Program-made: the position numbers and the translations under genes | The notes under the pieces: model-generated | The model's database searches: none | What the model saw: only the letters and a program-made list of their open reading frames with translations | Told to the model about the DNA's origin: nothing | Part shown: piece after piece, positions 47,800 through 63,000 of the stretch | Layout of the letters: every line of letters starts with the position of its first letter | Position numbering within the stretch: the stretch's first letter is position 1 | DNA from: Candidatus Eiseniibacteriota bacterium | GTDB taxonomy: Bacteria; Eisenbacteria; RBG-16-71-46; JABDJR01 | Length of the DNA: 64,000 bases | Reading direction: 5' to 3' | Assembly (NCBI GenBank): GCA_942491735.1 | Contig: CALOCN010000014.1 | Location: 3,147,534-3,211,533 of the forward strand

Positions 47800-49164
47800 T
47801 CAAGCTGTCTCCTCCCGCGCCCACGACGCAATGTGTCGTGCCGCGTCCGCCAGCGGGAGGCGTACCTGTTCGCCCCGCTGCAAGTGCTTCAATGTGATTT
47901 GCCCCGACGCCACCTCGTCATCCCCGAGAATGGCCGCCACCGGGGCCCCGATCTGATCCGCGTACTGGAGCTGCTTGCCCAGCTTCGCTTCCTCGGGGTA
48001 GACCTCGACCCGCAGATCCCCCCGCCGCAACTCCCGCGCCGCACCCAGGGCGGCGGCCGCGATCGCTCCCATCCAGCACACCAGAACGTCCGGTCCCACC
48101 GGGAGCGGCGGGTACATCCCGCGCTCCTCCATGACCAGCACGATCCTTTCCAGCCCCAGGGAAAACCCGACCGCGGGGACCGAACGCTTACCGAACATCC
48201 CGATCAACCCGTCGTATCGTCCCCCACCCCCCAGGCTCCCGGCCAGGTCCGGCACATCGATCTCGAAGATGGGGCCGGTGTAGTAGCTGAGCCCGCGCGC
48301 CAGGTCCGGCGTCACCCGGACGTGCCGGCCCGCCGGCGTATCCGCCACCAGATCCAGCAGACGCCCCAGGGTCGCAAGCCCCTCACGCGATGCCTCATCG
48401 TCCAACCGACGACCCAGCGCCTCCAGCACTTCGGCGTTCCCGGCCTCCGACCCCCGGATGCTCTCCAGGAGCCGCTGGCCGGCCTGGGCGTCGATCCCGC
48501 GTTCCACGAGTTCCTTGACCACCCCCTCCTCGCCGATCTTGTCCAACTTGTCCACCGCCACCAACGCGGTCTGCTCCGCTTCGTCCGCGATGCCGGCCGC
48601 GCGCACCAGCCCCCGCAACACCGCGCGGTGGTTGAGACGCAGCCGGAACTCCTCGAACCCCAACCCCTCCATCACCTCGCACACCGCGGCGAGGATCTCC
48701 GCGTCCGCGACCTCGCTCGTGCTGCCCAGGCTGTCCACGTCGCACTGGTAGAACTCGCGGTAGCGACCCCGTCCGGGACGGTCCGCTCGCCACACCGGCT
48801 GGATCTGGTAGCGCTTGAAGAACCGGGGCAAATCGCCGTACTGGGCAATGACGCGGGCCAGGGGAACGGTCAGGTCGTAGCGAAGCCCCAGATCGCCCAG
48901 CGCACCCTCGGTGACCGGGCTCTGCTCCAGGGCCCGAGCCAGGGCATCCCGCCGGTGCAGGAGCCGGAACAGGAGTTGGTCCCCTTCCTCACCGTATTTT
49001 CCGGTCAGAACACTCAGGTTCTCGAAGGCCGGGGTCTCGAGCGGGGCAAAGCCGTACCGCTCGAATCCGGATTGGATCTGCTGCACCACGTAACGGCGAC
49101 GCGCCACCTCCTGGGGCAGGAAATCGCGGGTTCCGCTGGGAGGCTTGGTGCTCGGTCGACTCAT
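47800..49164 (-). CDS. hisS: histidine--tRNA ligase
   Basis: 454 aa beginning MSRPSTKPPSGTRDFLPQE (HisRS N-terminal motif). It overlaps the aspS start by a few bp. Confidence 0.9.
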   Translation of the reverse strand: MSRPSTKPPSGTRDFLPQEVARRRYVVQQIQSGFERYGFAPLETPAFENLSVLTGKYGEEGDQLLFRLLHRRDALARALEQSPVTEGALGDLGLRYDLTVPLARVIAQYGDLPRFFKRYQIQPVWRADRPGRGRYREFYQCDVDSLGSTSEVADAEILAAVCEVMEGLGFEEFRLRLNHRAVLRGLVRAAGIADEAEQTALVAVDKLDKIGEEGVVKELVERGIDAQAGQRLLESIRGSEAGNAEVLEALGRRLDDEASREGLATLGRLLDLVADTPAGRHVRVTPDLARGLSYYTGPIFEIDVPDLAGSLGGGGRYDGLIGMFGKRSVPAVGFSLGLERIVLVMEERGMYPPLPVGPDVLVCWMGAIAAAALGAARELRRGDLRVEVYPEEAKLGKQLQYADQIGAPVAAILGDDEVASGQITLKHLQRGEQVRLPLADAARHIASWAREETA

Positions 49165-49171
49165 GGATTCC

Positions 49172-49564
49172 TCAGGTATCCTGGGATGGATCGATACGTT
49201 TTGAACGGACAGACTGCACGACGGATGCTCCCAGCAGCGCTCCCAGGGTGTCGGCTACCCCATCCGCCGCGCTGGTCATCCGCCCCTGGGTCCCCTGGAA
49301 CAACTCGTCCAGGACCCCCACCGTTCCCCCGATGATCACCGCGACCCCGATCACCCAGAGGGTCCGCCGTCGCCGTCCCCGACCCAAAACGCGGGCCAGG
49401 AGCGCACCCAGGACGCCGTACTCCAGCAGGTGGGCCACCTTGTCCAGGTGGGCCGCATCTCCCGGCGGAGCCAGGCTGGCCATCGAGGACAGGGTGAAGA
49501 TCATCAGGATATAGACCCCGACGGGAAGCCAAGCGCTCATGGCGGAAGCCAAGGAGTATGCCAC
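49172..49564 (-). CDS. VanZ-like family small membrane protein
   Basis: 130 aa with 3-4 TM helices and a VanZ-like pattern (...LDELFQ...). Confidence 0.5.
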   Translation of the reverse strand: MAYSLASAMSAWLPVGVYILMIFTLSSMASLAPPGDAAHLDKVAHLLEYGVLGALLARVLGRGRRRRTLWVIGVAVIIGGTVGVLDELFQGTQGRMTSAADGVADTLGALLGASVVQSVRSKRIDPSQDT

Positions 49565-49573
49565 AGGCGGGGG

Positions 49574-50031
49574 TTACCCGGTGATCCTGGACTCCTCGTC
49601 GCGAATGCTGGCCATGGCCTCGGCGGCGGAGCGGGCGCGCAGGAGGTTGCGCTGCAGATCACCCGTGTAGAGAAGACGGCTGATGCGGGCGAGGATCCGA
49701 ATGAAACCGGATCCCTCCTCGGGGCCGACCACCATGAAGACCAACTGCACCGGGCGCTCGTCGAGGGCTTCGAAATCAATGGGGGCGCGAAGTCGGCCCA
49801 ACGCCAGGGCCAGACGGCTCGCGCCGACACTCTGGGCATGCGGCACGGCGATCCCGCCGCCGATCCCCGTGCTCATGACGCGTTCCCGGGTCTGGATATC
49901 CTCCATCATCCGGTCCGCATCGGTGACCACGCCCCCCTTGACCTGGACGTCGACAAGCGAGCGCAGGACATCGTCCTTGGTACGGGCGGTCAGGTCCAGC
50001 GCAACGCAGGACTCCTGGAGTATTTCGGTGA
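49574..50031 (-). CDS. PTS EIIA(Ntr)-like protein (EIIA type 2), start codon unresolved
   Basis: A conserved EIIA domain (GIGGGIAVPHAQ with the active His) runs in-frame upstream of the tracked ORF as LTEILQESCVALDLTARTKDDVLRSLVDVQVKGG. No ATG/GTG/TTG lies between the upstream TAA (50038-50040) and the domain, so a non-canonical start or a sequence error is implied. Confidence 0.5.
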
Positions 50032-50128
50032 GCAGGAGCGGATCCTCTGTTTATTCGGGTGGGCCGGTCCGGGCGTTACGAGGCCAACTATAGCAGTGCC
50101 CGTATCCGAATTCCATGCGCTACCGGGC

Positions 50129-50869
50129 CTAGTAGTTGAACTCCATCCGGTACCAGGCGTCGACCCGCTCGTCCCCCATCATGGCCGGTCGAAACCGCAT
50201 GCTCGCCGCCGATTTCAGCAGTGCGGCCAGGAGAACCTCGGGGAGATCGGTCTGCAACGGCTTCACCTCGATCACCCGCCCGTTGCGATCCACGTGGAGG
50301 CGGACCTCGATCGCCAGGGGGGACGGCAGGCCCTTCGCTTCCTCCGGCGTCAACGGCAGCGCGGCCCGTTGCAGGCGAGGCGGCCGGAATCGGGCGGGCG
50401 GGGCCGAGTCCCCGCTGTCCCCCTCACCGTCCCCCTTTCCCAGACCGACCCCTTCGCTTCCCTCCCCTTCCCCCGCCACCTCCCCCTCGCCCGCGAACCG
50501 GGAAGCCGGGGCCAGCGGCGACGGGGTGGGTTCCGTGGGCGCCTCGAACCACTCCGCGACGTCCAACGGCTCGGAGCCGGTTTCCTCGAACGGGTCGACC
50601 TCGATCAGGGTGGCCAGCCGGGGAGCCGGCACCGGTTCGGGATCCAACAGACCGTCCGGGGCCGGCTCGGCCTCCACCGCCGCGGGAACCAACTCGGGCG
50701 CGGCGGCCATCGCGGGCGGGGCAAGCGTCACTTCGAAGGCGGCGCCTCCTGCCCGCTCGCCCCCCGCACCCCCTCCCGGCTCCGCATCCGTGGAGGGGCG
50801 GGGGCCAAGCACCAGACCCACGTGGATCAGCACCGAGGCCACCAGCGCCCCCCGCATCCGGGGGTTCAT
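50129..50869 (-). CDS. TonB-family protein (N-terminal anchor, Pro/Glu-rich spacer, TonB C-terminal domain)
   Basis: 246 aa. MNPRMRGALVASVLIHVGLVLG is the anchor. The Pro-rich spacer is PEPVPAPR... The C-terminus IEVRLHVDRNGRVIEVK...SAASMRFRPA matches TonB_C. Its start overlaps the GWxTD gene stop. Confidence 0.6.
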   Translation of the reverse strand: MNPRMRGALVASVLIHVGLVLGPRPSTDAEPGGGAGGERAGGAAFEVTLAPPAMAAAPELVPAAVEAEPAPDGLLDPEPVPAPRLATLIEVDPFEETGSEPLDVAEWFEAPTEPTPSPLAPASRFAGEGEVAGEGEGSEGVGLGKGDGEGDSGDSAPPARFRPPRLQRAALPLTPEEAKGLPSPLAIEVRLHVDRNGRVIEVKPLQTDLPEVLLAALLKSAASMRFRPAMMGDERVDAWYRMEFNY

Positions 50870-52860
50870 CGGTTGCGTCCCGGCTTGAGGACAACGAACG
50901 GGCCCTCCCGTTCCACGGAGGTCCCGGCGACGAGGTCCTCGACGCGGATGCGCAGCACGTAGTCACCCGGCTTCAGCGGCGGGACATCGATGGCCAGGAG
51001 CTGATCCAGCGTGGGCCCCGGGTCCGCGGCCTGGAACAACAACTCCGCTTCGGAGGCCCCGCCGCTTCCCAACACCACCTTGAGGAAACCGGTCCGGGTC
51101 TGCTGGCCGACCGTCACCCCGATCCGCACCTTGTGGTAGCCCTCGCGATCCGTGGCCAGGTGATAGGCCTCGAACGCGACCCCCAGCGGTTCTCCCACCC
51201 GGTAGCGGTGACCCGGGTTCGGGACCCCCGATCCGAACCCCCGCTGATACCGCCCTCCCACGTCCGGGTCAAACCCGAGCGTGCGCAGGAAGGCAATGTC
51301 GCTCAGGAGCGGTGTGGCCGGGTCGACGGTCTGAGCCGCCAGCGAGGCATAGCCGGATGCTCGCCCGCGGTTGAGCCGATCCACCGTCTCCAATCCAACG
51401 ATCACGCTGTCGGCCGTGCCGTCGATGGAGAACACCCCGACCAGGCGGTCCAGGGCATCCGTCTCGAACAGGGACCAGCTCCAGATGGAGGCATCCTCCA
51501 TGTCCCAGTCCGCGTCGTACCGGGACACCTTGCTAGAAAGACGATGCGGCTCCTCCAGGACATCCCGCCACGAGTCCGCGGGCAGGGCCACCGCAACCTC
51601 GATCCGCCCCTTGCCGGCGCCGTCCACGAACCGCCACAGCTCCACTTCCTGGTCCTTGGCGGGGGCGGTGAAGGGGACCGCGTAGTCGGTGGGATCCAGG
51701 GCCACGGTGAAGTCCGCGGCCAACGGGACGAAGGCGATCGGGTTGTAGAACCGTCCGTTGAGGTTGTAGTCCACGAAGAAGAAGGTCTTGGATCGATGCC
51801 GCTGACCATAGGTGACCCCGATCGTGGGCGATCCGTGTGGGGTCGCGGTCCGGCTCTCTTCCCCACGGAACACATCCACCCCCCAGCGAAAATCCCGGGG
51901 AAGCCCGTAACGTATGATCATGCGGCCCGGTGCGTGATCCCAACCCCGGAGTTCCATCTCGTCGATCCCGAACAGGAGCTGGGCCTGGACCAGACGCCGA
52001 TAGTGCTCCAGGAGACGCGGGTTTTCGGGATCCGCCGGGGTGGGATCCTTCCAACGCCAGTAGTCCTCGACGAACCCGGTGCTGTCCGCCGTCTCCACCC
52101 GTTCGTCCTCGGCCTTGGGATCGATCCAGTCCAGACGATGAAAGGCGTAGAGCTCGTTGCTGGTCATCAGGGTCAACCCGGCGCGGAACGACTCCTCGGC
52201 CAGGGTCCATGCCCCCGCTTCGGTGTAGAGCATGCCGCGCAGCAGGGAGGGCCAGGGGTCATCCGGTTCCGCCTCCAGCCAACGCAACGACAGTGAGTCC
52301 ACCGCGGCGCGGTCGTTGGTGTAGTAGGCGATCCGCAGGCCCCGGCGGATGGCCGCGGCGTTGTCCGGGTCCACCCGGAGGGTGCGGCGATTGGCCAGGA
52401 TGGAGTTGTCCAGGTGCTCGTTACGGAAGTAACGCTGGTACCGGCGCAGCTCGTGCTGGGCGAGATCCCCCCACAATCCGGGCTGGTCGGGATCCAGTTC
52501 CAGGGCGCGGTGGAACGAGGATCGGGCGTCCCGTCGGAAGCCGCGCCGCTCCTGGAGGTGCGCCATGCGGGCCCACAGGTCCGGGTCGTCCTCGTTGACC
52601 TCGATGGCTTCCTGCAGGGCGTCGAACGCTTCGCGACGGAGTTCCACGTCGGGACTGTCGCCGAGCAGCTCCGAGAGCTGCTTGCGGGACTCCACGTCCC
52701 GGCGGTCCTTGCGGATCCGAATCCGCAGTTCGCTCACCCACTGGGCGGAATCGGCGGGAGCAACGGCGGGGAGAGTGGATTCGGCGGCCAAGGCGGCGCC
52801 GGTCCCAGCGAGAACAACGCCGGTCACGGCCAGAACAGTGCCGGTCACGGCCAGTACCAT
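50866..52860 (-). CDS. TPR + GWxTD-domain protein
   Basis: RGWDHAPGRMIIRYGLPRD resembles the GWxTD signature. N-terminal TPR-like repeats and a hydrophobic N-terminus built from LAVTG repeats are present. The start is set at M49 of the tracked ORF to avoid a 97-bp overlap with the upstream gene (alternative GTG at 52869). Confidence 0.65.
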   Translation of the reverse strand: MVLAVTGTVLAVTGVVLAGTGAALAAESTLPAVAPADSAQWVSELRIRIRKDRRDVESRKQLSELLGDSPDVELRREAFDALQEAIEVNEDDPDLWARMAHLQERRGFRRDARSSFHRALELDPDQPGLWGDLAQHELRRYQRYFRNEHLDNSILANRRTLRVDPDNAAAIRRGLRIAYYTNDRAAVDSLSLRWLEAEPDDPWPSLLRGMLYTEAGAWTLAEESFRAGLTLMTSNELYAFHRLDWIDPKAEDERVETADSTGFVEDYWRWKDPTPADPENPRLLEHYRRLVQAQLLFGIDEMELRGWDHAPGRMIIRYGLPRDFRWGVDVFRGEESRTATPHGSPTIGVTYGQRHRSKTFFFVDYNLNGRFYNPIAFVPLAADFTVALDPTDYAVPFTAPAKDQEVELWRFVDGAGKGRIEVAVALPADSWRDVLEEPHRLSSKVSRYDADWDMEDASIWSWSLFETDALDRLVGVFSIDGTADSVIVGLETVDRLNRGRASGYASLAAQTVDPATPLLSDIAFLRTLGFDPDVGGRYQRGFGSGVPNPGHRYRVGEPLGVAFEAYHLATDREGYHKVRIGVTVGQQTRTGFLKVVLGSGGASEAELLFQAADPGPTLDQLLAIDVPPLKPGDYVLRIRVEDLVAGTSVEREGPFVVLKPGRNR

Positions 52861-52880
52861 GCCGGTCACGGCCAGAAGGA
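52797..52880. repeat. imperfect tandem 21-bp repeat (about 4 copies of gccggtcacggccagaacagt) in the 5' end of the GWxTD gene
   Basis: Seen directly in the sequence. It encodes the LAVTG(M/T/V)V repeats of the N-terminal hydrophobic segment. Confidence 0.6.
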
Positions 52881-52907
52881 CAGCCGCGATCCAATGCAGG
52901 CGGATGC

Positions 52908-55900
52908 TCAGGGCTGGAGGGAGTCCAAGCCGTAGCGGGTGATCTTGTTCTTGAGGCCCTTGCGGCTGAGACCCAGCTCCTGGGCGGCTCGCGTCTTGTT
53001 CCACTGGTGTTTGCCCAATGCGTCCAGCACCAAACGACGCTCCATGTCCTCGACGGTGGTCCGGAGATCCCCATCGGCCGAGCCACCGGCTCCACCGGAT
53101 TCCTCGGTGGCGTCCAGCACCTCGCTGGGCAGGAGTTCCACTCCGATCATCTCGCCGTCGTCGGCCAGGATCGCCGCACGGCGCACGACCTTTTCGAGTT
53201 CGCGGACGTTACCGGGCCAATTGTAGCGCACGAGACGCTGCAGGGCGGACCGGTTGAAACCGCTCGCCTCGCGACCCGTCTGGGCGGTGACGTTGGCCAG
53301 GAAGTACTCGGCGAGCAGCGGAATGTCCTCGACCCGCTCCCGCAGGGAGGGCACCCGGATAATGATGTCGTTGAGCCGGTAGTAGAGGTCCTTGATGAAC
53401 GGTCCGTCACCGTCCACTCCAAGCAGGTTGGCCTTGGAGGTGGCGCAGATCACCCGCACGTTGAGCTTGCGGTACGAGGTGGATCCCACCGGCCGCACTT
53501 CCCCCTTGTCGAGCAGGTGGAGGAGCCGGCGTTGCACGCCCAGTCCCGCCTTGCCGATCTCGTCCAGGAAGATGGTGCCGCCGTCGGCTTCCTCGAAGAG
53601 CCCCTTCTTGTCCGCCGAGGCGCCGGTGAAGGCGCCCTTGACGAACCCGAACAGCTCGCTCTCGAGCAGGTTCTCGGGAAGCGCCGCGCAGTCGACGGTC
53701 ACGAAGGAACCCTCGGCGCGGTCACTGGAAAGATGGATGGCCCGCGCGATCAGGGTCTTGCCCGTTCCCGTCTCCCCCTGGAGGAGGACGGTGAGGTCGG
53801 TGCGGTTGACCTTCTCGACCAGCTTGAGGATCTCCAGCATCTCGGCATTCTGGGTCACCACGTCGGCGAGGAACGTGCGGCGCTTGAGGTTGTCTTCCTC
53901 GGTCAGGATGCTGGACTCCAGGCTGGCCCGGCCGGTCAGGGCCTCCAGCTGCGGGACCAGCGCGAGGGCCAGGTTGAGATGACTGGGGCCGAACGAGCCG
54001 TGCCCGTTCTCGGCCATACGGTCGAAGTAGAGATAGGCGGTCTGGCCGCTGCCGGAAACCGGGATCACCAGCAGGGAGCTGGCGTCGCGGGCCGAGGCCA
54101 CGTCCTGCCAGGGCTCGCGCACTGCGGTCCCGGCGTCGATCACGATCTCGGGCCGCTCCGGGCGTGTCTGCCGCAGGATGGCGGTGAGAATCTGTGACGG
54201 CGCGGTTCCGATCCGATGCGTGGCCGGTCCCAGGTCCGGGTTCGCGAACACGATCGCCGCCCCGTCCGCTTCCACCGCAGCGGAGAGGATCTGCAGGACC
54301 TCGTTCAGCTTGTCCGCATAGGGTCGCCGCGACTCGACGATCTCTTCCAGACGGCCCGCGGTGCGGTACGCGCCCAGGTTGGTCACCGACGAGTCGACCA
54401 GACGCCCCTCGAGGTCCTTCTGGGTCTCGGCAAGGAGGCCGCGGATGGTGGGATCCTGGACATCGGCGGCCAGCGCGCGCGCCTTCTCCAGATAATCCCC
54501 GGCCAGGTCCAGCTGGTCACGACGGATGGCCGCGTTGGCCAGGGAGACCAGGATTTCGACTTCGAATTCGGAAAGGTTGAGCGAGCGCACGATGGTACGC
54601 GCCTCGGCGAGCACCTTCTCGGCCCGGCCCAGGTCGTCGCCACGCTCCAGGCGGGCACGTCCCTCGAAAAAGAGCGCCTGGGCGAGGGGGAAACCCTTGC
54701 CCCAACGGCGAAGCAGGTCATGGGCGGTGGCGAAGGTGGTGTAGGCGGCGCGATCCCGGTTGGCCTGCTGCACCCGGGCCAGGGCCACGTGGGCCAGGGC
54801 GTGTTCCAGGTTGTCGTCCACGCGCCGGCTGAGATCCACCGCACGCCGCACCAGGTTCTCGGCACTGTCCAGGTCCTTTTCCTGCAGCGACAGCTCACCC
54901 CGCAGCCGCAGCAGCTGGCAGATGAGGTCGCTTTCCTGCGAGATCTCGATCGCCTTGCGCCAGGCCACTTCCAGGCACCGGCGCGCGCGGGTCAGGTCGC
55001 CGCGGCTCTGGTGCAGTTGTCCCAACGCCATATAGGTGAGGGACGTCTCACGCGGATACTGCTCTTCCGAGGTGAACTCCAGGGCCTGCTCGAGCGTCTC
55101 GAGACAGTCTTCCCAGCGGCGCAGCACGAGATCCACTCCGGCCCGACCCAACAGGGCGCGAATGATGCCGACCGGGTCGTTGACCTCGCGGCACAGGGTC
55201 TCGGAGTCGGTGAAACGCTCGCGGGCGCGCTCCCACTGGCTCATGCGGAAGTGGACGATCCCCAGGTTCTGCAATCCGCCACGCTGCTCGGCGTAGCTCC
55301 CCTCGATCGCCTTGAGGCTGGAAGCCACCTGGAGGTACTCCAACGCACGCTGCCAATCGCAGCGCTGCTGGTAGGTGACCCCGAGGTTGTTGTAGGCCTT
55401 GGCCAGGTTGCGGATGTCCCCGGCGTTCTTGAACGCGGCCAGGGCCGCTTCGAAATACTTGATGCTCTGGGAGACATCCCCGTTGCGGTTGTGTCCGGTA
55501 CCCAGGAGCAGGAGCGCGAACCCGCGCGTGGAGGCATCCGTCTCCTCGTCGAGCAGGGCGAGGGCCTGCTCACCGCAACGGATGGAGGTGTCGAGGGATC
55601 CCTGCTGGAGATGCACCTTGCCCAGCTTGACCTGGATTCGACCCAGCTCGGCCGTGTCCCCTGCTTCGGTGGCCGCCTCGGCCGCATCCTGCAGGGTCAG
55701 GAGTGCATCCTTCCAACGTCCAGTGATCTCCTGACAGGTCCCGACGCCCCGCAAGGCGCGCGCCCGTTGGGCCGGGGTGGGCGACTGGTCGAGGACCTGG
55801 CGATACGTCCGGCTTGCGGATTCGTAGTTCGCCGCGGCCTCTTCCAGCTCGGCCACGCTCAACAGGTCGTGGGACTGGCCCGCGGTTCCTGGAACGCCCG

Positions 55901-55955
55901 TCGCGGATGCGGTTTTTCTTTTTGGCTCAGCCATGACTCCAACCCTCCGGGGCAC
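52908..55955 (-). CDS. sigma-54-dependent transcriptional activator with N-terminal TPR array and GAF domain (TPR-GAF-AAA+-HTH)
   Basis: 1015 aa. It has multiple TPR repeats, a central GAF-like region, Walker A GETGTGKT, GAFTGA (GFVKGAFTGAS) and a C-terminal Fis-type HTH. Confidence 0.85.
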   Translation of the reverse strand: MPRRVGVMAEPKRKTASATGVPGTAGQSHDLLSVAELEEAAANYESASRTYRQVLDQSPTPAQRARALRGVGTCQEITGRWKDALLTLQDAAEAATEAGDTAELGRIQVKLGKVHLQQGSLDTSIRCGEQALALLDEETDASTRGFALLLLGTGHNRNGDVSQSIKYFEAALAAFKNAGDIRNLAKAYNNLGVTYQQRCDWQRALEYLQVASSLKAIEGSYAEQRGGLQNLGIVHFRMSQWERARERFTDSETLCREVNDPVGIIRALLGRAGVDLVLRRWEDCLETLEQALEFTSEEQYPRETSLTYMALGQLHQSRGDLTRARRCLEVAWRKAIEISQESDLICQLLRLRGELSLQEKDLDSAENLVRRAVDLSRRVDDNLEHALAHVALARVQQANRDRAAYTTFATAHDLLRRWGKGFPLAQALFFEGRARLERGDDLGRAEKVLAEARTIVRSLNLSEFEVEILVSLANAAIRRDQLDLAGDYLEKARALAADVQDPTIRGLLAETQKDLEGRLVDSSVTNLGAYRTAGRLEEIVESRRPYADKLNEVLQILSAAVEADGAAIVFANPDLGPATHRIGTAPSQILTAILRQTRPERPEIVIDAGTAVREPWQDVASARDASSLLVIPVSGSGQTAYLYFDRMAENGHGSFGPSHLNLALALVPQLEALTGRASLESSILTEEDNLKRRTFLADVVTQNAEMLEILKLVEKVNRTDLTVLLQGETGTGKTLIARAIHLSSDRAEGSFVTVDCAALPENLLESELFGFVKGAFTGASADKKGLFEEADGGTIFLDEIGKAGLGVQRRLLHLLDKGEVRPVGSTSYRKLNVRVICATSKANLLGVDGDGPFIKDLYYRLNDIIIRVPSLRERVEDIPLLAEYFLANVTAQTGREASGFNRSALQRLVRYNWPGNVRELEKVVRRAAILADDGEMIGVELLPSEVLDATEESGGAGGSADGDLRTTVEDMERRLVLDALGKHQWNKTRAAQELGLSRKGLKNKITRYGLDSLQP

Positions 55956-55988
55956 CCCGTCCGGGGCGAGTGCCGCAGATCACGAGAG

Positions 55989-56354
55989 CTACCCTGGGAA
56001 CGTCGCGAACCGCGTCATTGTCGCGATCCAAAGCAGGACGAAGCGTCTCCAGGCATCCCGGGGGCTCCGCTCCGGGCGATCCTGGCGCTCGAACTCGAGA
56101 TCGCCTTCGGCGTCGATGTCGAACGAGTTGGGATCGGCTTCGGAGGTTCCGCCCCCATCCCCGCTATCCCCTGGAGGGGCACCGGGGCCGGGAGGGCCAC
56201 CTCGATCCGACTGACTTCCATCCTTGTCCAGCACGCCACCGCCGAAGGTATCGTCGGTGGTCTGGGCTGAGACCTGTGCGGGCAGCGACAGCACCAGCGC
56301 GAGCACCACGCCCAGAAGAGCTGTCCATCCCATCCATCCGAGTTTCCGTTTCAT
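55989..56354 (-). CDS. small secreted acidic Gly/Pro-rich protein, unknown function
   Basis: The start is placed at MKRKLGWMGWTALLGVVLALVLSLPAQVSA (signal peptide). The region after it is low-complexity. The gene ends 33 bp upstream of the activator ATG. Confidence 0.45.
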   Translation of the reverse strand: MKRKLGWMGWTALLGVVLALVLSLPAQVSAQTTDDTFGGGVLDKDGSQSDRGGPPGPGAPPGDSGDGGGTSEADPNSFDIDAEGDLEFERQDRPERSPRDAWRRFVLLWIATMTRFATFPG

Positions 56355-56405
56355 TTCACCTGTCCTCGCTTCCCAAAAGACTGGAAAACCATGCATAGGT
56401 ATAAG

Positions 56406-56420
56406 GCACATACCATGCCA
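56406..56420 (-). promoter_or_regulatory. candidate sigma-54 promoter TGGCATGGTATGTGC upstream of the small secreted gene and activator operon
   Basis: On the minus strand the GG (-24) and GC (-12) elements sit at consensus spacing, with one mismatch in each half. It lies ~50 bp upstream of the 56354 ATG. Confidence 0.35.
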
Positions 56421-56600
56421 GGGTCGCCGCCTTCCTGGAAACAGGGCGAACTCCGTAACAAACCATGTCGCTTGAGGTTAGAAACGGGCTCCTGTCCGTG
56501 CCCGAGGGGGGTTGAGAACAGTATACTCGCCAAACTGGAACCTGGCTACCCAGCCCCAAAGGCTCACGCCTTAACTCATTACAATTGAACAATTTAGAAG

Positions 56601-56617
56601 TGGGTACCAAATACCCA
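56601..56617. promoter_or_regulatory. 17-bp palindrome TGGGTACCAAATACCCA (candidate activator UAS/operator)
   Basis: 6-bp perfect arms (TGGGTA/TACCCA) sit ~190 bp upstream of the candidate sigma-54 promoter, in the divergent region shared with the GGDEF gene. Confidence 0.3.
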
Positions 56618-56774
56618 CCCCGATCCGGTCCCGGTTATAGGCGGATACCCCGTGACCACCCTGCCGCCGGTTGACGTAACCTGTTGACTGTGAGACAATT
56701 GGGCCGTTCATCTCCCACCCTGAACCGGTCCCGCCGGGATTCCGGCCCTCAATCGGAGGCGCCCACGGCGGCAA

Positions 56775-58166
56775 ATGAAGCGGCGTAGCATCCCCTTCAG
56801 GGATCTCCTGAAACAAGTCCTACCGGTCGATCGCCTCCCCACGGATGTGAGGGAGCGGGTTGCGCGTGCCCTGGATCAGGGGGACCCGCGGACCCTGGAA
56901 GCCCTCGCCCTCGAGGCCATGGGGCTCCTCGAGGCCGAGGGACACCTGCGTTTCATCGAGGAGGTGCTCCAGGGGGACGACAAGTTCCGCCGCTACCGCG
57001 ACCTGACCACCGGGAACATCCTGGCCGTCCGGGTCCCGGTGACCGAGGAGGATGAGGGGGTTCTCAAGATCGCCCTCCCCATCCAGAAGTGGCGGGGACG
57101 CACCTCCCTCGATCAGATTCGCACGCTGTTCGGGCTCTACAACAGGATCCTCACCCGCAACTCGGAGCTGCTCAGCTCTCCCCGCCAGATCCTGCGCGAG
57201 ATCCGCACTACCGGTCGCCAGGTGCTGGGCTGCGACGAGGTCACCTTCTGGGCTGCCCCCCGCAAGAAGACCCCCGCCGATCTGGTCGAGGCCAGCGCGG
57301 ACCCCTATGACGAGGAGCTGGTCACGGAGTGGGTCCTGGGCAAACGCCACATGCTCTGCTACACCGACCTCCCGGCGCAGATTCATCCGGAGACCGGGCA
57401 CCTCGACACCCGTTACCAGTCCCTGGCCATCATCCCCCTGGGCGACGCCGAGCAGGCGGTGTACGGCGCCCTCCTGGCCTGGAGCTCCCAACCCCACTTC
57501 TTCGATGAGAATCGGATGGGTTTGCTGAGCCTTCTCTCCGAGGTCGCGGGGGATCTCTGTCGGCGCTCCGAGATCCTCGGCAAGATGGTGTTCGTCGACG
57601 GACCCACCGGTGTGTACAACCGGGCCTTCTACGAACTGCAGCTGGACAACGAGATCGCGCGAGCGCAGCGGGACAAGCAGACCTTCGCCCTGGGCATCGC
57701 CGACATCGACGACTTCAAGCAGTTCAACGAACGCTATGGCTACGAAGCCGGTAACCAGGTCCTGGTCACCGCGGCCCAGGTCTTTCGCGGCGGCCTGCGG
57801 CCGTTCGATACCGTGGCGCGGTGGGGAGGAGAGGAATTCACCCTCATCCTCACCGCACCGGTCACTCCCGAACACGCCATGGTGGTCTGCGACCGCCTGC
57901 GCAATGCGGCCGAGCTGTCGCGGTTCACCCTGACCGGGCTGGATGGGGAGTCCCTCTCCGCCCAGCTCACCGTGTCGATCGGGGGAGCCCTCTACCCCCA
58001 GGACGGCGGCACGGCAAAGGAACTCTGGAACGCGGCCAACACCGCCCTGAAGCACGCGAAGCAGACCGGCAAGAACAAGGTGGTCTTCGCTTCCGATCTC
58101 CCGCCCGACAGCGCCTCGACCGGAACCCGGAACGCGGCAACGAAGAGCCGCAAGAAGAAAGCCTGA
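56775..58166 (+). CDS. GAF-domain diguanylate cyclase (GGDEF)
   Basis: 463 aa with a GAF-like middle domain, a C-terminal GGDEF domain and the active-site motif RWGGEEF. Confidence 0.85.
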   Translation: MKRRSIPFRDLLKQVLPVDRLPTDVRERVARALDQGDPRTLEALALEAMGLLEAEGHLRFIEEVLQGDDKFRRYRDLTTGNILAVRVPVTEEDEGVLKIALPIQKWRGRTSLDQIRTLFGLYNRILTRNSELLSSPRQILREIRTTGRQVLGCDEVTFWAAPRKKTPADLVEASADPYDEELVTEWVLGKRHMLCYTDLPAQIHPETGHLDTRYQSLAIIPLGDAEQAVYGALLAWSSQPHFFDENRMGLLSLLSEVAGDLCRRSEILGKMVFVDGPTGVYNRAFYELQLDNEIARAQRDKQTFALGIADIDDFKQFNERYGYEAGNQVLVTAAQVFRGGLRPFDTVARWGGEEFTLILTAPVTPEHAMVVCDRLRNAAELSRFTLTGLDGESLSAQLTVSIGGALYPQDGGTAKELWNAANTALKHAKQTGKNKVVFASDLPPDSASTGTRNAATKSRKKKA

Positions 58167-58253
58167 CCCACGCGACCCGTTCCAATACATCCCAGCTATT
58201 ATCGGAAACAATCCATAAATACTTATCCACACCGGACCCGCCCCCGGGGCAAC

Positions 58254-58296
58254 AAAAAACGGCCCGGCGCCACGGGGGCGCAGGGCCGCTTTGTCC
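58254..58296. terminator. bidirectional intrinsic terminator between GGDEF (+) and HU (-) genes
   Basis: The hairpin CGGCCCGGCGCC-ACGGG-GGCGCAGGGCCG is flanked by A6 on one side and CTTTGT on the other, giving hairpin + U6GUU on the minus strand. Confidence 0.55.
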
Positions 58297-58311
58297 AACC
58301 GGTCGCGAGTC

Positions 58312-58578
58312 CTAGAGGCTGCCCTTGTAGGCCTTGCCGGGACGGAACCGCACGGTCTTGCTGGCCTTGATCTTGATGGCCTCACCCGTCTTCGGGTTGC
58401 GACCCATGCGGGCCTTGCGGGCGCTGACGTTGAAGGAACCGAAGCCGGCGATGGTCACGCCGCCCTTCTTGGTTCCGCGCTTGATGGCGTCGAGCGTGGC
58501 GTCGACGGCCAACGAGGCATCCTTCTTGGTCAGCTGCGTCTTCTTCGCGACGGATTCAATCAGTTCAGCTTTGTTCAT
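58312..58578 (-). CDS. hup: HU-family DNA-binding protein
   Basis: 88 aa beginning MNKAELIESVAKKT, with ...GFGSFNVSARKARMGRNPKTGE... as the HU/IHF signature. Confidence 0.9.
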   Translation of the reverse strand: MNKAELIESVAKKTQLTKKDASLAVDATLDAIKRGTKKGGVTIAGFGSFNVSARKARMGRNPKTGEAIKIKASKTVRFRPGKAYKGSL

Positions 58579-58810
58579 GGCATGTCCCTCCTGTGCCTAG
58601 AACGGGTTTCTCGTAGTCGGCCGACTTTGCCGACCAACAGGATGGATATCACCCCGTTATCGGTCCGTCAACGAAAAACAATCCGGAAAGCCGCAAGAAA
58701 TCAGGGCAAAACGGGGGTCCGTCAGCGGGATCCTCCGCGCCCACAGGGAACCGGGATCACCGACCGCCCGATCCACCGGCCGGTGGGGCCGGGAGTCATC
58801 GTCGACGGGG

Positions 58811-61800: not shown

Positions 61801-63000
61801 CTTCGAAGTGGGCGGAATACGGGAAGTTGGTCAGCTGCGTGTACCCGTCGCCGGCGGGGTATCCATCCCCCTCGCTGAACCCCACCCCCCCCTCGGGATC
61901 GTGGGTGATCCAGTAGGAATGGAAGAAGGAGAAGCGGGACTCGCTGAACAGCGGTTCGAACCGGTCCTCGTAGTTGAACCCGTAGAAGATCACCCAGTCC
62001 CCGTCATCGAGGGTCCCGTTCTCGTTCGAATCGATGACGATCCGGGGCACCGGGGTCAGGGGGAACGGGTTGGCGACCCGGTCGTTGTAGCCCCGCTCCA
62101 TCACCTGGACATCGTCCACCGGCACTCCGGACGGCCAGCCCTGGGAGGCCAGTTCGGAATACGCGACCCGGGCCAAACCGGAGGCCCCGAACCGGACCCG
62201 AACCTGGACCTGACCCTCCTTCACCACCGGCGGGGGCAACTCGGTCATCGCGCGCGTGGCGAAGGAACGGGCCGAGGCCGCGTTGAGCACCACCGCCTTC
62301 TGGATCCCGTCCCAGGCCGGTTCCGGCCCCACCCGCACTTCACGCTCCTCCCCCGGGACGAGGGATGGGGCGCCGACCGCCGAGGTCTCCCGTTCGAACC
62401 GGACCGTGACCTCGATCTCCCGCGCCACCGAGTAGCTTCCCGACCCCAGGTCCACCGACACCGGGCGAACCAGGAGGGACTGGACACGCTGGAAGCGCCA
62501 CCCCTGCACAGGGCCGGCCTCGACCACCGGGGTCAGCCCCGCCACGGCGTAGGCCTGCGGGTCCTCGACGAACGTCTCCACCTGGGTGTCCAGGGGCACC
62601 CCCGGGACGACGGTCCGGGTGGGGACCGGCGCGGGGCGCGGACCCTGGAAGCTGGAGCTCCGGGTCACGCGATGGGTCACCACCGCCCGATGCCCGGCCG
62701 GCACCGCGAAGGGGAACCCGCGCATGGGGAGGCTGGGCGCGCCGGCGGCCTCGCTCCCGGGGCTCACGTAGCCGGGCAAGGCCACGGTGAGCCGCACCCC
62801 GACCTCGGGGTGCTCCTGAAGGGCACGCACCGGCTCCGGGACCCGGATACGCACGACAAACCCATCCGGGCTCTCCGAGACGACGGTCAACCCATCCTCG
62901 GGGCGGGCATCGCTCAACCCGGGGGCCAGCGCGGGGAGCAGCAGGGCAAGAAGAAGGCAGGAAAGGAGCCGGCGGGGGCTTCCGTGATCGCTAGCGTTCA
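58811..63000 (-). CDS. peptidase C25 (gingipain-like) family protein with C-terminal Por/FlgD-Ig-like sorting (beta-sandwich) domain
   Basis: The start is placed at MNASDHGSPRRLLSCLLLALLLPALAPGLSDA (signal peptide). The C25-like catalytic dyad context is FVQFTGHANKN (His) and IFEGYACHLNEF (Cys). The C-terminal NVYFYPNPY...VSVYTVKGRRV...NGVYLFVLEL resembles the Por_Secre_tail/T9SS CTD. The tracked ORF's further 5' extension (to 63964) is spurious. Confidence 0.8.

What the first reader, a model, noticed from the sequence alone, without database searches (positions are those of the whole stretch)
50129..56617. Sigma-54 module: secreted small protein, TPR-GAF-sigma-54 activator, GWxTD protein and TonB-C protein with predicted promoter and UAS
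Four co-directional, tightly spaced genes form this module. A -24/-12 element (TGGCATGGTATGTGC) sits ~50 bp upstream of the first gene's ATG. A 17-bp perfect-arm palindrome (TGGGTACCAAATACCCA) lies ~190 bp further upstream, at the distance expected for an activator-binding site, which suggests autoregulation. Two 21-bp direct repeats (CCCACCCYGAWCCGGTCCCG at 56614 and 56714) lie exactly 100 bp apart in the same region. The activator's fusion to a TPR array and a GAF domain is unusual. The function of GWxTD proteins is unknown. A TonB-C partner hints at an envelope-spanning signalling or uptake device. A divergent GGDEF cyclase shares the control region.
Basis: partly seen in the sequence, partly recalled or inferred. 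Interest (0 to 1): 0.6.

Follow-up and report, generated by a model that had tools for sequence, protein, structure and literature searches.

The report
Self-activating sigma-54 operon for envelope proteins
An uncultured soil bacterium (Candidatus Eisenbacteria) has a gene cluster with its own sigma-54 switch (a conserved promoter, two activator-binding sites and a large sensor-activator) that most likely turns on three cell-envelope proteins of unknown function; the switch is a familiar type, but what it controls is uncharacterised.

Summary
On the minus strand lie a small secreted ORF, a TPR/GAF-fold/AAA+/HTH sigma-54 activator, a TPR-GWxTD protein and a TonB-like protein.

Pattern counts alone do not exceed chance. 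The evidence is conservation. In 10 distinct related Eisenbacteria loci (activator 33-67% identical) the TGGCA-N7-TGC element is kept upstream of the small ORF. The dyad sits about 175-200 bp upstream of it.

A deep clade swaps the TonB and GWxTD gene order and has different flanking genes. It still keeps GGDEF, small ORF, activator, TonB, GWxTD and PtsN together.

The GAF call fails by sequence but holds by predicted fold. The 100-bp direct repeat is real but not conserved.

Best reading: a classical, positively autoregulated sigma-54 operon driving an uncharacterised envelope set. The regulation is ordinary. The activator architecture and the regulated proteins are new variants. Nothing here is experimentally shown, and rpoN could not be checked.

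The parts
56406..56420 (-). Sigma-54 -24/-12 promoter element TGGCATGGTATGTGC. GG is at 56419-56418 and GC at 56407-56406. The predicted transcription start is near 56395.
   Evidence: Sequence read. TGGCA-N7-TGC is invariant in the 7-locus alignment and present in all 10 related loci. It is the only strict match in the 64-kb window. Nine of 11 strict matches in 358 kb of fetched loci are this orthologous site.
56601..56617 (.). UAS1: 17-bp dyad TGGGTATTTGGTACCCA (family pattern TGGnTAC-N3-GTnnCCA). This is the proposed binding site for the activator.
   Evidence: Its centre lies 185-201 bp upstream of the -24 GG in clade 1 and 175-176 bp in clade 2.
56536..56552 (.). UAS2: second 17-bp dyad TGGGTAGCCAGGTTCCA, 65 bp promoter-proximal to UAS1.
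   Evidence: The UAS1-UAS2 spacing is exactly 65 bp in the window and all seven other clade-1 loci. L023 has a degenerate copy at +65 and L025 has none. The repeat finder family D7 also shows the 65-bp spacing.
55989..56354 (-). First gene: small secreted protein of 121 aa. It has a Sec signal peptide (VSA|Q), a Gly/Pro/Asp-rich region, an EADP(D/N) motif and a C-terminal W-hydrophobic tail.
   Evidence: Orthologues of 115-123 aa with the same layout sit at the same position. The GAGG ribosome-binding site and ATG are conserved. No family hit. GC3 is 0.72 against about 0.85 in neighbouring genes.
52908..55934 (-). Sigma-54 activator (bEBP) with four parts: a MalT-like TPR array (~1-500), a GAF-fold domain (~526-690), an AAA+ domain with GAFTGA, and a Fis-type HTH. 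It is cytoplasmic.
   Evidence: Pfam hits. Orthologues are 63-67% identical and start at the ATG at 55934. The GAF fold comes from an AF2 model (pLDDT 82) matched by Foldseek. Related bEBPs carry a Pfam-detectable GAF at the same position.
50866..52860 (-). TPR-GWxTD protein of 664 aa: N-terminal hydrophobic export or anchor segment, TPR superhelix, GWxTD core (motif GWDHA) and C-terminal beta-sandwich domains.
   Evidence: TIGR04514 scores 36.3 against a cutoff of 28. The AF2 model has pLDDT 81.8. Foldseek matches only the TPR and Ig-like parts. No solved structure covers the GWxTD core.
50129..50869 (-). TonB-like protein of 246 aa: N-terminal membrane helix with SxxxH (ASVLIH), Pro/Glu-rich linker and TonB_C-like C-terminal domain. 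Its start overlaps the GWxTD stop (ATGA).
   Evidence: The clade-2 orthologue is called TonB_C by Pfam, and the profile comparison gives 97% probability.
49574..50035 (-). PtsN-like EIIA(Ntr) gene immediately downstream, with the active-site motif GIAVPH. It is a conserved neighbour of the module in both clades and a possible fifth member.
   Evidence: PTS_EIIA_2 scores 84.9 bits. Adjacency is kept where the other downstream genes differ. A conserved CTG start is likely.
56775..58166 (+). Divergent diguanylate cyclase with an N-terminal region, a GAF domain and GGDEF (GGEEF active site, RPFD I-site). It shares the 420-bp control region with the operon.
   Evidence: It is divergent from the operon in every locus of both clades.
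56671..56699 (+). Sigma-70-type promoter for the cyclase gene: TTGACG-N17-GACAAT. It starts 54 bp beyond UAS1.
   Evidence: The block is conserved in the orthologue alignment, for example TTGACC-N17-TAGAAT.
56614..56733 (.). Two 20-nt direct repeats (56614-56633 and 56714-56733), 18 of 20 identical and 100 bp apart. One abuts UAS1. The other lies in the cyclase 5' leader.
   Evidence: It exceeds all 300 shuffles. It is not conserved in orthologues. Only the GTGGGAG part of the second copy is conserved, and that part tracks the cyclase promoter rather than UAS1.

Best explanation
This is a positively autoregulated, enhancer-dependent (sigma-54) operon of Candidatus Eisenbacteria.

Proposed regulatory mechanism:
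1. RpoN holoenzyme binds the -24/-12 element at 56420-56406 and forms a closed complex.
2. The operon's own activator binds through its Fis-type HTH to two 17-bp dyads 65 bp apart. Their centres lie about 190 and 125 bp upstream of the -24 GG.
3. The activator oligomerises, loops the DNA to the promoter and uses ATP hydrolysis and its GAFTGA loop to open the complex.
4. The N-terminal TPR superhelix and the GAF-fold domain are the cytoplasmic sensor that gates the AAA+ ring. The signal is unknown.

Transcript and products:
- The transcript encodes a small secreted protein, the activator itself, a periplasmic or envelope TPR-GWxTD protein and an inner-membrane TonB-like protein. The TonB-like gene is translationally coupled to the GWxTD gene.
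- A PtsN-like EIIA gene may belong to the same transcript.
- The three exported products most likely work together at the envelope, with the TonB-like protein supplying proton-motive-force-driven contact.
- An active GGDEF cyclase is transcribed divergently from a sigma-70 promoter next to UAS1.

Shown in silico: the domains, the motifs and their conservation, spacing and linkage. Inferred: RpoN dependence, which protein binds the dyads, autoregulation, co-transcription, and any function of the envelope proteins.

My confidence is about 0.8 for the regulatory architecture and about 0.3 for 'the three exported proteins form one envelope device'.
For: Promoter:
- TGGCA-N7-TGC is invariant in an intergenic alignment of only 50% mean identity.
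- It is present in all 10 related loci. The -24 GG lies 65-67 nt before the small ORF's ATG in most, 84-86 in L004/L007 and 126-130 in clade 2.
- Nine of 11 strict matches in 358 kb of fetched DNA are this orthologous site.

Enhancer:
- UAS1 and UAS2 are conserved with fixed 65-bp spacing. Their distance to -24 changes by about 5-10 bp between lineages.
- The HTH recognition helix (SRKGLKNKI) is invariant across both clades, which fits the conserved half-site.

Activator competence:
- Sigma54_activat scores 198.9 bits, and HTH_8 is present.
- Walker A GETGTGK, GAFTGA and Walker B are intact.
- The GAF fold is supported by predicted structure.

Operon:
- Gaps are 54 nt and 47 nt, followed by a 4-nt overlap.
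- Terminator-like sites are no more frequent than chance, and none lies between the genes.

Linkage:
- The cluster is kept across clade 1.
- It is also kept in clade 2, despite swapped TonB/GWxTD order and different flanks (ClpB and nuo instead of HU and VanZ-HisS).

Related systems:
- A third lineage of TPR/GAF bEBPs sits next to a sigma-54-type promoter in front of an envelope lipoprotein operon.
- An unrelated MAG has a near-consensus sigma-54 promoter and a perfect palindrome in front of an operon containing a GWxTD gene, directly after a TonB_C gene.
Against: - No rpoN gene could be checked, because only the window is available, and there are no expression data.
- Pattern frequency alone is at chance level.
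- The -12 box reads GTGC rather than TTGC. The element is quasi-palindromic, and a perfect palindrome in L005, so it could in principle be an operator for a dimeric regulator.
- A sigma-70-like match (TAGCCA-N17-TATACT, 56548-56520) overlaps UAS2. Its -10 box is conserved in five loci. The operon may therefore also, or instead, be read by the housekeeping sigma.
- UAS2 is weak or absent in clade 2.
- One species lacks the TonB-like gene.
- GWxTD genes in Rubricoccaceae, Caldithrix and Gemmatimonadales have no nearby bEBP or sigma-54 promoter.
- The whole 40-kb region is syntenic in clade 1, so linkage within that clade alone is weak evidence.
- The small ORF has weaker codon bias than its neighbours.
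Confidence: 0.75

Rival explanations
1. The operon is transcribed by the housekeeping sigma factor from the sigma-70-like site overlapping UAS2. On this view the conserved TGGCA...TGCC element is an operator for a dimeric repressor or other regulator, not an RpoN site.
For: TAGCCA-N17-TATACT lies at 56548-56520. Its TATACT box is conserved in five clade-1 loci. The -24/-12 element is quasi-palindromic and is a perfect palindrome, GGCACGgtaCGTGCC, in L005. Sigma-54 pattern counts are at chance level.
Against: The -10 box is not conserved in L004, L007, L012 or clade 2, whereas TGGCA-N7-TGC is conserved in all loci. Conservation is asymmetric: the leading T is invariant but no symmetric A follows TGCC. 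A bEBP with an intact GAFTGA loop is encoded in the operon itself. Both promoters may coexist, as at glnAp1 and glnAp2 (comparison from my own knowledge).
Confidence: 0.1
2. The two dyads are operators for a different regulator that controls the divergent cyclase gene, or both genes. The bEBP would then bind elsewhere or regulate other targets.
For: UAS1 ends 54 bp from the cyclase -35 box. No binding experiment exists. The dyads and the cyclase promoter share one 420-bp region.
Against: The dyads keep a fixed distance to the sigma-54 promoter, whereas their distance to the cyclase promoter block varies from 100 to 143 bp. Tandem dyads 100-200 bp upstream of -24 are the canonical bEBP arrangement. 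The HTH is invariant where the half-site is conserved.
Confidence: 0.1
3. Only the small ORF and the activator form the regulated unit. GWxTD, the TonB-like protein and PtsN would be unrelated neighbours kept by general synteny.
For: The whole region from C25 to CorC is syntenic in clade 1. GWxTD genes stand alone in other phyla. The TonB-like gene is missing in L010/L011. A PtsN gene lies near HisS and within 5 kb of a GWxTD gene in a Rubricoccaceae MAG that has no bEBP.
Against: Clade 2 keeps these genes together although their order is swapped and both flanks differ. The GWxTD stop and TonB-like start overlap. No terminator-like site lies in any gap between the four operon genes. An unrelated MAG also places TonB_C, a sigma-54 promoter and GWxTD together.
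Confidence: 0.12
4. The module is an accessory of a type-IX-like secretion and sorting system built around the neighbouring PorU-related C25 peptidase. GWxTD would be a periplasmic or outer-membrane scaffold for it.
For: A C25 peptidase related to the sortase PorU (NF033707, 178.7 bits) lies 2-7 kb away in both clades. In L019 a PorV/PorQ/BamG-family outer-membrane protein directly precedes the GWxTD gene. In L026 a PorV-like protein is part of the sigma-54 operon next to a TPR/GAF bEBP.
Against: The PorU score is far below the model cutoff of 420. No T9SS core genes were seen in the window. GWxTD does not match PorW/SprE or any other T9SS model. The small protein has no T9SS C-terminal domain. 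The C25 link is lost in L010.
Confidence: 0.1

Closest known systems
NtrC / glnAp2-type sigma-54 promoters with tandem upstream activator sites (glnALG of enteric bacteria)
   Same: A -24/-12 promoter, two upstream dyads for a Fis-type HTH bEBP, the activator gene inside the regulated operon, and a possible weak sigma-70 promoter overlapped by an activator site. The glnAp1/glnAp2 comparison comes from my own knowledge.
   Different: The sensor is a ~500-aa TPR array plus a GAF-fold domain, not a phospho-receiver. The dyads lie at about -190 and -125 relative to the -24 GG. The regulated genes are envelope proteins of unknown function. No cognate kinase is present.
GAF-containing bEBPs (NifA, NorR, FhlA, Aquifex Nlh2)
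   Same: The order GAF, AAA+, HTH. The predicted GAF fold matches the Nlh2 (4g3v) and NifA (8jrc) GAF domains and a Chlorobium bEBP GAF (3k2n).
   Different: There is an extra N-terminal MalT-like TPR superhelix. The GAF is too divergent for Pfam or profile detection. The ligand is unknown.
PEP-CTERM regulatory system PrsK/PrsR/PrsT (Haft et al. 2006, PMC1569441)
   Same: Sigma-54 promoters with an upstream activator motif in front of small secreted proteins. A sigma-54 activator and a TPR protein with an export signal belong to the system.
   Different: No receiver domain or histidine kinase, no PEP-CTERM signal and no exosortase. TIGR02915 and TIGR02917 score far below their cutoffs. This is a functional analogy only.
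TonB / ExbB-ExbD energy transduction
   Same: An N-terminal membrane helix with the SxxxH motif, a Pro/Glu-rich spacer and a TonB_C-like C-terminal domain.
   Different: No ExbBD or TolQR genes and no TonB-dependent receptor in the module or window. The gene is paired with a TPR-GWxTD protein. The YP motif is replaced (LTP). The Pfam score is below cutoff in this copy.
GWxTD domain proteins (TIGR04514 / PF20094), an uncharacterised family
   Same: TIGR04514 scores above its cutoff. The full-length architecture (TPR, GWxTD, beta-sandwich) is shared with hundreds of 50%-identity cluster representatives.
   Different: The motif reads GWDHA. In Eisenbacteria the gene has been placed in a sigma-54 operon with a TonB-like gene. 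No paper in the searchable library mentions the family and no structure exists.
TPR-AAA+ sigma-54 regulators of Pyrinomonadaceae (Acidobacteria) and a third TPR/GAF/AAA+ lineage
   Same: The same ~1020-aa architecture. These regulators sit next to sigma-54-type promoters driving small exported or envelope products.
   Different: Only 22-29% identical. Their neighbours are a microviridin-type RiPP cluster or lipoprotein/PorV-like genes, with no GWxTD or TonB-like gene.

Membership tests
Bacterial enhancer-binding protein (sigma-54 activator) | AAA+ Sigma54_activat domain with Walker A and Walker B motifs | tested here: met
   PF00158 scores 198.9 bits (E 6e-59). GETGTGK and IFLDEI are present in the alignment.
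Bacterial enhancer-binding protein (sigma-54 activator) | GAFTGA loop that contacts sigma-54 | tested here: met
   KGAFTGAS is present. G, F, T, G and A are invariant in the orthologues.
Bacterial enhancer-binding protein (sigma-54 activator) | C-terminal Fis-type HTH for enhancer binding | tested here: met
   PF02954 scores 44.2 bits. The recognition helix is invariant across both clades.
Sigma-54-dependent promoter | GG at -24 and GC at -12 with the canonical spacing, upstream of a gene | tested here: met
   TGGCATGGTATGTGC lies at 56420-56406, with its 3' end 51 nt before the ATG. It is conserved in all 10 related loci.
Sigma-54-dependent promoter | rpoN present in the genome, and transcription dependent on RpoN and a bEBP | not testable with these tools
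   Only the 64-kb window is available, and it holds no rpoN. There are no expression data.
GAF domain | Match to a GAF sequence model | tested here: not met
   No Pfam GAF hit, only a faint PHY match (E 0.01). The profile comparison with the neighbouring cyclase's GAF gave 0.2% probability. The PDB profile search found nothing.
GAF domain | GAF fold | tested here: met
   The AF2 model of residues 526-698 has pLDDT 82 and pTM 0.78. The top 50 Foldseek hits are almost all GAF or GAF-like sensor domains, with TM-scores of 0.53-0.68. Homologous bEBPs carry a Pfam GAF at the same position.
GWxTD domain family | Score above the TIGR04514 cutoff | tested here: met
   36.3 bits against a cutoff of 28.
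GWxTD domain family | The GWxTD motif itself, and a match to the Pfam PF20094 model | tested here: inconclusive
   The motif is GWDHA here and GW[DNEQ]HA in the orthologues, with G and W invariant. PF20094 is not reported at E<=0.01.
TonB family | TonB_C domain above the Pfam gathering score | tested here: inconclusive
   20.1 bits against 24.6 for the window protein. Clade-2 orthologues are called TonB_C. The profile comparison gives 97% probability.
TonB family | N-terminal membrane helix with SxxxH, and a Pro-rich spacer | tested here: met
   ASVLIH in the window, and S-x3-H in all full-length orthologues. A Pro/Glu/Ala-rich linker is present.
TonB family | ExbB/ExbD (or TolQ/TolR) partner and an outer-membrane target | not testable with these tools
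   None is found in the window. The rest of the genome was not available.
PEP-CTERM PrsR/PrsT regulatory system | Equivalog scores for PrsR (TIGR02915) and PrsT (TIGR02917) | tested here: not met
   274 bits against a cutoff of 502.6, and 34 bits against 312.
Type IX secretion sortase PorU (the neighbouring C25 gene) | Score above the NF033707 cutoff | tested here: not met
   178.7 bits against a cutoff of 420. Peptidase_C25 and FlgD_ig domains are present.

The most novel reading that the evidence does not exclude
The small secreted protein, the TPR-GWxTD protein and the TonB-like protein could form a previously undescribed envelope machine energised by the proton-motive force.
- The small protein's conserved strand-like (E/D)ADPDxFxID motif or its C-terminal W-rich helix might dock to the TonB C-domain or to the TPR groove.
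- Production of the machine would be set by a cytoplasmic TPR/GAF sigma-54 activator. That activator might integrate c-di-GMP from the divergent cyclase, or the phosphorylation state of the adjacent PtsN-like EIIA.
- If so, this would give the large, unstudied GWxTD family its first functional context. It might also link the family to PorU/PorV-type surface sorting.
Probability: 0.15. Interest if true: 0.7.

Novelty: new variant of a known kind. Interest (0 to 1): 0.4.

Why it matters
The regulatory logic is the standard sigma-54 enhancer mechanism, so that part alone is not surprising. Three things make the locus useful.

- It is a clean regulatory unit in a phylum with no cultured member. 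It offers defined DNA sites (one promoter, two dyads with fixed 65-bp spacing) that can be tested in a heterologous host.
- It puts a bEBP sensor architecture that I found no experimental work on (MalT-like TPR array plus a cryptic GAF) next to its likely target. Two other lineages show the same pairing with different targets.
- It gives the first contextual handle on GWxTD proteins. This family has thousands of members, no structure and no mention in the searchable literature. Here it is tied to a TonB-like partner, a small secreted protein, a diguanylate cyclase and a PtsN-like protein.

Tried and rejected
Searches and tools that failed or found nothing:
The close alignment A4 was used instead and returned only 10 loci.
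- Sequence tests for GAF were all negative: Pfam on the subdomain, a PDB profile search and a profile comparison with the neighbouring cyclase's GAF. Only the fold test succeeded.
- Rfam found nothing credible across 49000-59000.
- PADLOC gave only generic AAA+/TPR hits, so there is no link to anti-phage defence.
- A literature search for 'GWxTD' returned no papers. Studholme & Dixon 2003 on bEBP domain architectures was not held.

Ideas tested and dropped:
- An attenuator or terminator between the small ORF and the activator. The fold is no better than shuffled sequence (z = 0.09).
- An IHF site between UAS2 and the promoter. Only L002 has a consensus match, so I do not claim one.
- The 690-aa protein beside the Pyrinomonadaceae regulator as a GWxTD relative. 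It is not.
- The conserved GTGGGAG as a third activator half-site. It tracks the cyclase promoter, not UAS1.
- FleQ-type c-di-GMP-binding motifs in the AAA+ domain. Reading the sequence against motifs recalled from memory gave no convincing match, so no claim is made.

Full report
**What is in the window.** Between 50129 and 56354 the minus strand carries four tightly packed genes.
- The first is a 121-aa ORF (56354-55989). It has a Sec-type signal peptide, a Gly/Pro/Asp-rich middle and no family match.
- The second is a ~1008-aa regulator. The orthologue alignment points to a start at the ATG at 55934, and the gene ends at 52908. It has a long TPR array (TPR_12, and TPR_MalT at 72 bits), a Sigma54_activat AAA+ domain (198.9 bits), an AAA lid and a Fis-type HTH_8. 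No NCBIfam equivalog reaches its cutoff.
- The third is a 664-aa protein (52860-50866). It has TPR repeats and a GWxTD domain, with TIGR04514 at 36.3 bits against a cutoff of 28.
- The fourth is a 246-aa protein (50869-50129). Its ATG overlaps the preceding stop codon. It has an N-terminal membrane helix carrying SxxxH (ASVLIH), a Pro/Glu-rich linker and a weak TonB_C match of 20.1 bits against a cutoff of 24.6.
- Divergently, at 56775-58166, lies a GAF-GGDEF diguanylate cyclase with a GGEEF active site and an RPFD I-site.
- Downstream on the operon strand come a PtsN-like EIIA, VanZ, HisRS and AspRS. Upstream lie an HU-family gene and a 1381-aa C25 peptidase.
- The rest of the window is housekeeping: pyrimidine synthesis, tRNA synthetases, RecO, YbeY and the like. 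It holds no rpoN and no exbBD.

**Checking the cis elements.**
- TGGCATGGTATGTGC is at 56420-56406 on the minus strand. Its 3' end is 51 nt from the ATG.
- The 17-bp dyad TGGGTATTTGGTACCCA is at 56617-56601.
- The two 20-nt repeats start at 56614 and 56714. They match at 18 of 20 positions and are 100 bp apart.
- Counting patterns gives no support for the promoter. The consensus with up to two mismatches occurs 49 times against 57 expected. The strict form TGGCAY-N6-TGC occurs once against 0.95 expected.
- The repeat is beyond chance. None of 300 dinucleotide shuffles of the intergenic region reaches 18/20, and the best is 16.

**Relatives and taxonomy.**
- The GWxTD protein has 30 close homologue clusters at 42-100% identity. 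Genome records name them Candidatus Eisenbacteria.
- Seven further distinct clade-1 loci were recovered with flanks. All show the order C25, HU, divergent GGDEF, small ORF, activator, GWxTD, TonB-like, PtsN, VanZ, HisS, AspS, PhoH and onward.
- There are two exceptions. In L004 the TonB-like gene was simply not annotated. One species (L010/L011) truly lacks it and has a transposase-disrupted upstream flank.
- Protein identities to the window are: PtsN 69-78%, activator 63-67%, GGDEF 58-63%, GWxTD 45-52% and the TonB-like C-domain 37-61%. In 14 of the 15 clade-1 loci the small protein is too divergent for tblastn (L014 gives a 39% hit). All keep its layout.

**Phylogenetic footprint.** The intergenic DNA aligns at only 50% mean identity, yet several blocks stand out.
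- TGGCA-N3-T-N3-TGC is invariant.
- The GAGG ribosome-binding site and the ATG are invariant.
- The UAS1 dyad is conserved as TGGnTAC-N3-GTnnCCA.
- A second dyad of the same length and outer TGG...CC(A/G) pattern is also conserved. In the window it is TGGGTAGCCAGGTTCCA at 56552-56536.
- A block near the cyclase gene is conserved too.

Measured locus by locus:
- The -24 GG lies 65-67 nt before the ATG, or 84-86 nt in L004/L007.
- The UAS1 centre lies 190-192 bp upstream of the GG (185 in L004/L007, 201 in L005).
- The UAS2 centre lies 125-127 bp upstream (120 and 136 in the same loci).
- The UAS1-UAS2 distance is 65 bp in the window and all seven other clade-1 loci.
- L005 carries a 10-bp insertion between UAS2 and the promoter.

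Across all 358 kb of fetched loci, both strands, the strict pattern TGGCA[CT]-N5-[TG]TGC occurs 11 times. Nine of these are this orthologous site.

**A deep clade settles the linkage question.**
- A search with the sensor half of the activator found a second Eisenbacteria clade. Its activator is 33% identical, its GWxTD protein 26% identical over the full length (E 1e-34), and its TonB-like protein scores 97% by profile comparison.
- In two such genomes, L023 and L025 (the latter a 2.69-Mb record), the order is C25, HEAT-PPIase, ClpB, divergent GGDEF, small ORF, activator, TonB_C, GWxTD, PtsN and then nuo genes.
- Both flanks differ from clade 1 and the TonB/GWxTD order is swapped. The set GGDEF | small ORF, activator, TonB-like, GWxTD, PtsN is nevertheless intact.
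- These loci also keep a -24/-12 element (TGGCATAATTAATGC and TGGCATGTTTGATGC). The -24 GG lies 126-130 nt before the ATG.
- They keep a UAS1-type dyad ([C/T]GGTTACT[T/C]GGTATCCA) centred 175-176 bp upstream of the GG. The second site is degenerate in L023 and absent in L025.
- The clade-2 small protein keeps the signal peptide, the Gly-rich stretch, a DADPDD motif and an LLWLVLR tail.
- The HTH recognition helix is invariant across both clades. This fits the shared half-site.

**The sensor.**
- Residues ~521-695 of the activator match no GAF model. Pfam gives only a faint PHY hit. A PDB profile search finds nothing. A profile comparison with the neighbouring cyclase's GAF gives 0.2% probability.
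- An AlphaFold model of residues 526-698 has pLDDT 82 and pTM 0.78. By Foldseek it is matched almost exclusively by GAF domains. These include the bEBP GAFs of Aquifex Nlh2, NifA and a Chlorobium regulator, at TM-scores of 0.53-0.68.
- A third lineage of ~1030-aa regulators, 25-29% identical, has a Pfam-detectable GAF at the same position.
- The architecture is uncommon but not unique. Pyrinomonadaceae encode ~1020-aa TPR-AAA+ regulators, one of them next to a microviridin-type peptide cluster. The third lineage sits next to TGGCATGACGATTGC, which lies 67 nt before an operon of lipoproteins and a PorV-like protein.

**The regulated proteins.**
- The GWxTD model (pLDDT 81.8) shows a TPR superhelix at 35-300, an alpha/beta core that contains the conserved W-x3-DP-x-P...N-x4-EH-x2-R...GW-x3-PG...YG-x-P residues, and C-terminal beta-sandwiches.
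- Foldseek recognises only the TPR part and the Ig-like parts, the latter through arrestin and RbmA. No solved structure matches the core by sequence.
- The family is large: 158 50%-identity cluster representatives below E 1e-30 and 2364 below 1e-10, mostly 650-750 aa, many with lipoprotein signals.
- Outside Eisenbacteria, in Rubricoccaceae, Caldithrix and Gemmatimonadales, the gene has variable neighbours, no bEBP and no sigma-54-like promoter.
- One unclassified MAG (L019) is the exception. After Bat genes and a TonB_C gene comes a perfect palindrome (TGCAAACTATGTTTGCA). Then comes a near-consensus sigma-54 promoter (TGGCATAACGTTTGCA), 34 nt before an operon of an unknown protein, a PorV/PorQ/BamG-family protein, a GWxTD protein and another unknown.
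- The sigma-54/TonB-C/GWxTD association therefore recurs at least once independently, but it is not a general property of the family.

**Mechanism.**
- The best-supported reading is a classical enhancer-dependent operon with positive autoregulation, as set out in the Best explanation section.
- I commit to RpoN holoenzyme at 56420-56406 and to the operon's own activator on the two dyads. The rest of the mechanism follows the standard looping and ATP-driven opening model.
- The TPR and GAF domains would gate the AAA+ ring. By analogy with other GAF bEBPs, I infer that they hold it inactive until a signal arrives. That step is inference.
- A basal promoter is needed to prime such a loop. The sigma-70-like TAGCCA-N17-TATACT that overlaps UAS2 is a candidate. 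It is conserved in only part of clade 1.
- The cyclase has its own conserved sigma-70-type promoter, TTGACG-N17-GACAAT at 56671-56699. It starts 54 bp beyond UAS1, so cross-talk is possible but untested.
- The three exported products probably act together at the envelope. The GWxTD and TonB-like genes are translationally coupled.
- What they do is unknown, and I put only about 0.3 on 'one device'.

**What is not supported.**
- The 100-bp direct repeat is not found in any orthologue. Only the GTGGGAG inside the second copy is conserved, and its position follows the cyclase promoter, not UAS1.
- No known RNA family, no defence-system signature and no attenuator between the first two genes were found.
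- rpoN could not be searched for.

**Verdict.**
- The corrections are: two dyads rather than one, a GAF call that holds only at fold level, a repeat specific to this genome, and PtsN and GGDEF as conserved companions.
- The mechanism is a known kind. The sensor architecture and the regulated gene set are new variants.
- Interest is moderate. The main value is a tractable entry point to GWxTD proteins and to regulation in an uncultured phylum.

Noticed in passing
window 49574-50053 (minus strand): The conserved N-terminus of the PtsN-like EIIA has no canonical start codon. An in-frame TAA lies 5 codons upstream (50053-50051). The first ATG/GTG/TTG would remove about 35 conserved residues. A CTG at 50035-50033 is preceded by AGAGGA at a 7-nt spacing. 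L004, L007 and L009 have the same CTG-CTC-AC/TC-GA context behind a purine-rich stretch. A CTG initiation codon is likely.
   Followed up: partly
window 52797-52877: A 21-bp tandem repeat of 3.9 copies (85% matches) lies inside the N-terminal hydrophobic segment of the GWxTD gene. It encodes reiterated VLAVTGx heptads. This makes the export or anchor segment unusually long and the true start codon uncertain (52860 or 53004).
   Followed up: no
window 58811-62956 (minus strand): A 1381-aa C25 peptidase with a C-terminal FlgD_ig domain. It is related to the type IX secretion sortase PorU (178.7 bits, cutoff 420). It lies within 2-7 kb of the module in both Eisenbacteria clades.
   Followed up: partly
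window 56520-56548 (minus strand): A sigma-70-like promoter match, TAGCCA-N17-TATACT. Its -35 box lies inside UAS2. The TATACT box is conserved in five clade-1 loci. The layout recalls glnAp1/glnAp2, where activator binding would shut a basal promoter.
   Followed up: partly
window 56712-56719 (plus strand): A conserved CTCCCAC(C) lies just downstream of the cyclase gene's -10 box, at the start of its roughly 68-nt leader. It is invariant in seven loci. Its function is unknown and there is no Rfam match.
   Followed up: partly
L014 6162-6176 and L004 about 6244: A second element close to the sigma-54 consensus (TGGCAATGCGGTTGC and TGGCAACTTGTTTGC) lies about 32 bp upstream of UAS1, in the operon's orientation, in two orthologous loci. 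L007 has a degenerate version. It is absent from the window.
   Followed up: no
L019 5966-6113: In an unclassified MAG, a perfect palindrome (TGCAAACTATGTTTGCA) and a near-consensus sigma-54 promoter (TGGCATAACGTTTGCA) lie between a TonB_C gene and an operon. The operon encodes an unknown protein, a PorV/PorQ/BamG-family protein, a GWxTD protein and another unknown. BatD and BatE-like genes lie upstream.
   Followed up: partly
L024 4531-4545 and 8001-13543: A Pyrinomonadaceae TPR-AAA+ sigma-54 regulator sits next to a microviridin-type cluster: an Inhibitor_I10-like 66-aa peptide and two MvdD-type ATP-grasp ligases. A TGGCATGATTGTTGC element lies about 200 bp before a 690-aa protein of unknown family.
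   Followed up: no
L026 11341-11357 and 11851-11865: In a third TPR/GAF/AAA+ regulator lineage, TGGCATGACGATTGC lies 67 nt before an operon of two lipoproteins, a secreted protein and a PorV-like protein. A perfect 17-bp palindrome, TGGCACGGGCCGTGCCA, lies about 500 bp upstream and has the same TGG-N11-CCA outline as the Eisenbacteria dyads.
   Followed up: no
L016 4541-11701: In a Rubricoccaceae MAG a PtsN-domain gene and HisS lie about 5 kb upstream of the GWxTD gene, with no bEBP nearby. The proximity of GWxTD, PtsN and HisS may therefore predate the sigma-54 module.
   Followed up: no
window 55989-56354: The small ORF has weaker third-position GC bias (0.72) than its neighbours (0.83-0.87), and it evolves very fast (17-30% identity between orthologues). 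It still looks like a real gene: the RBS, ATG, signal peptide, ADPD motif and a single invariant Trp are all conserved.
   Followed up: partly
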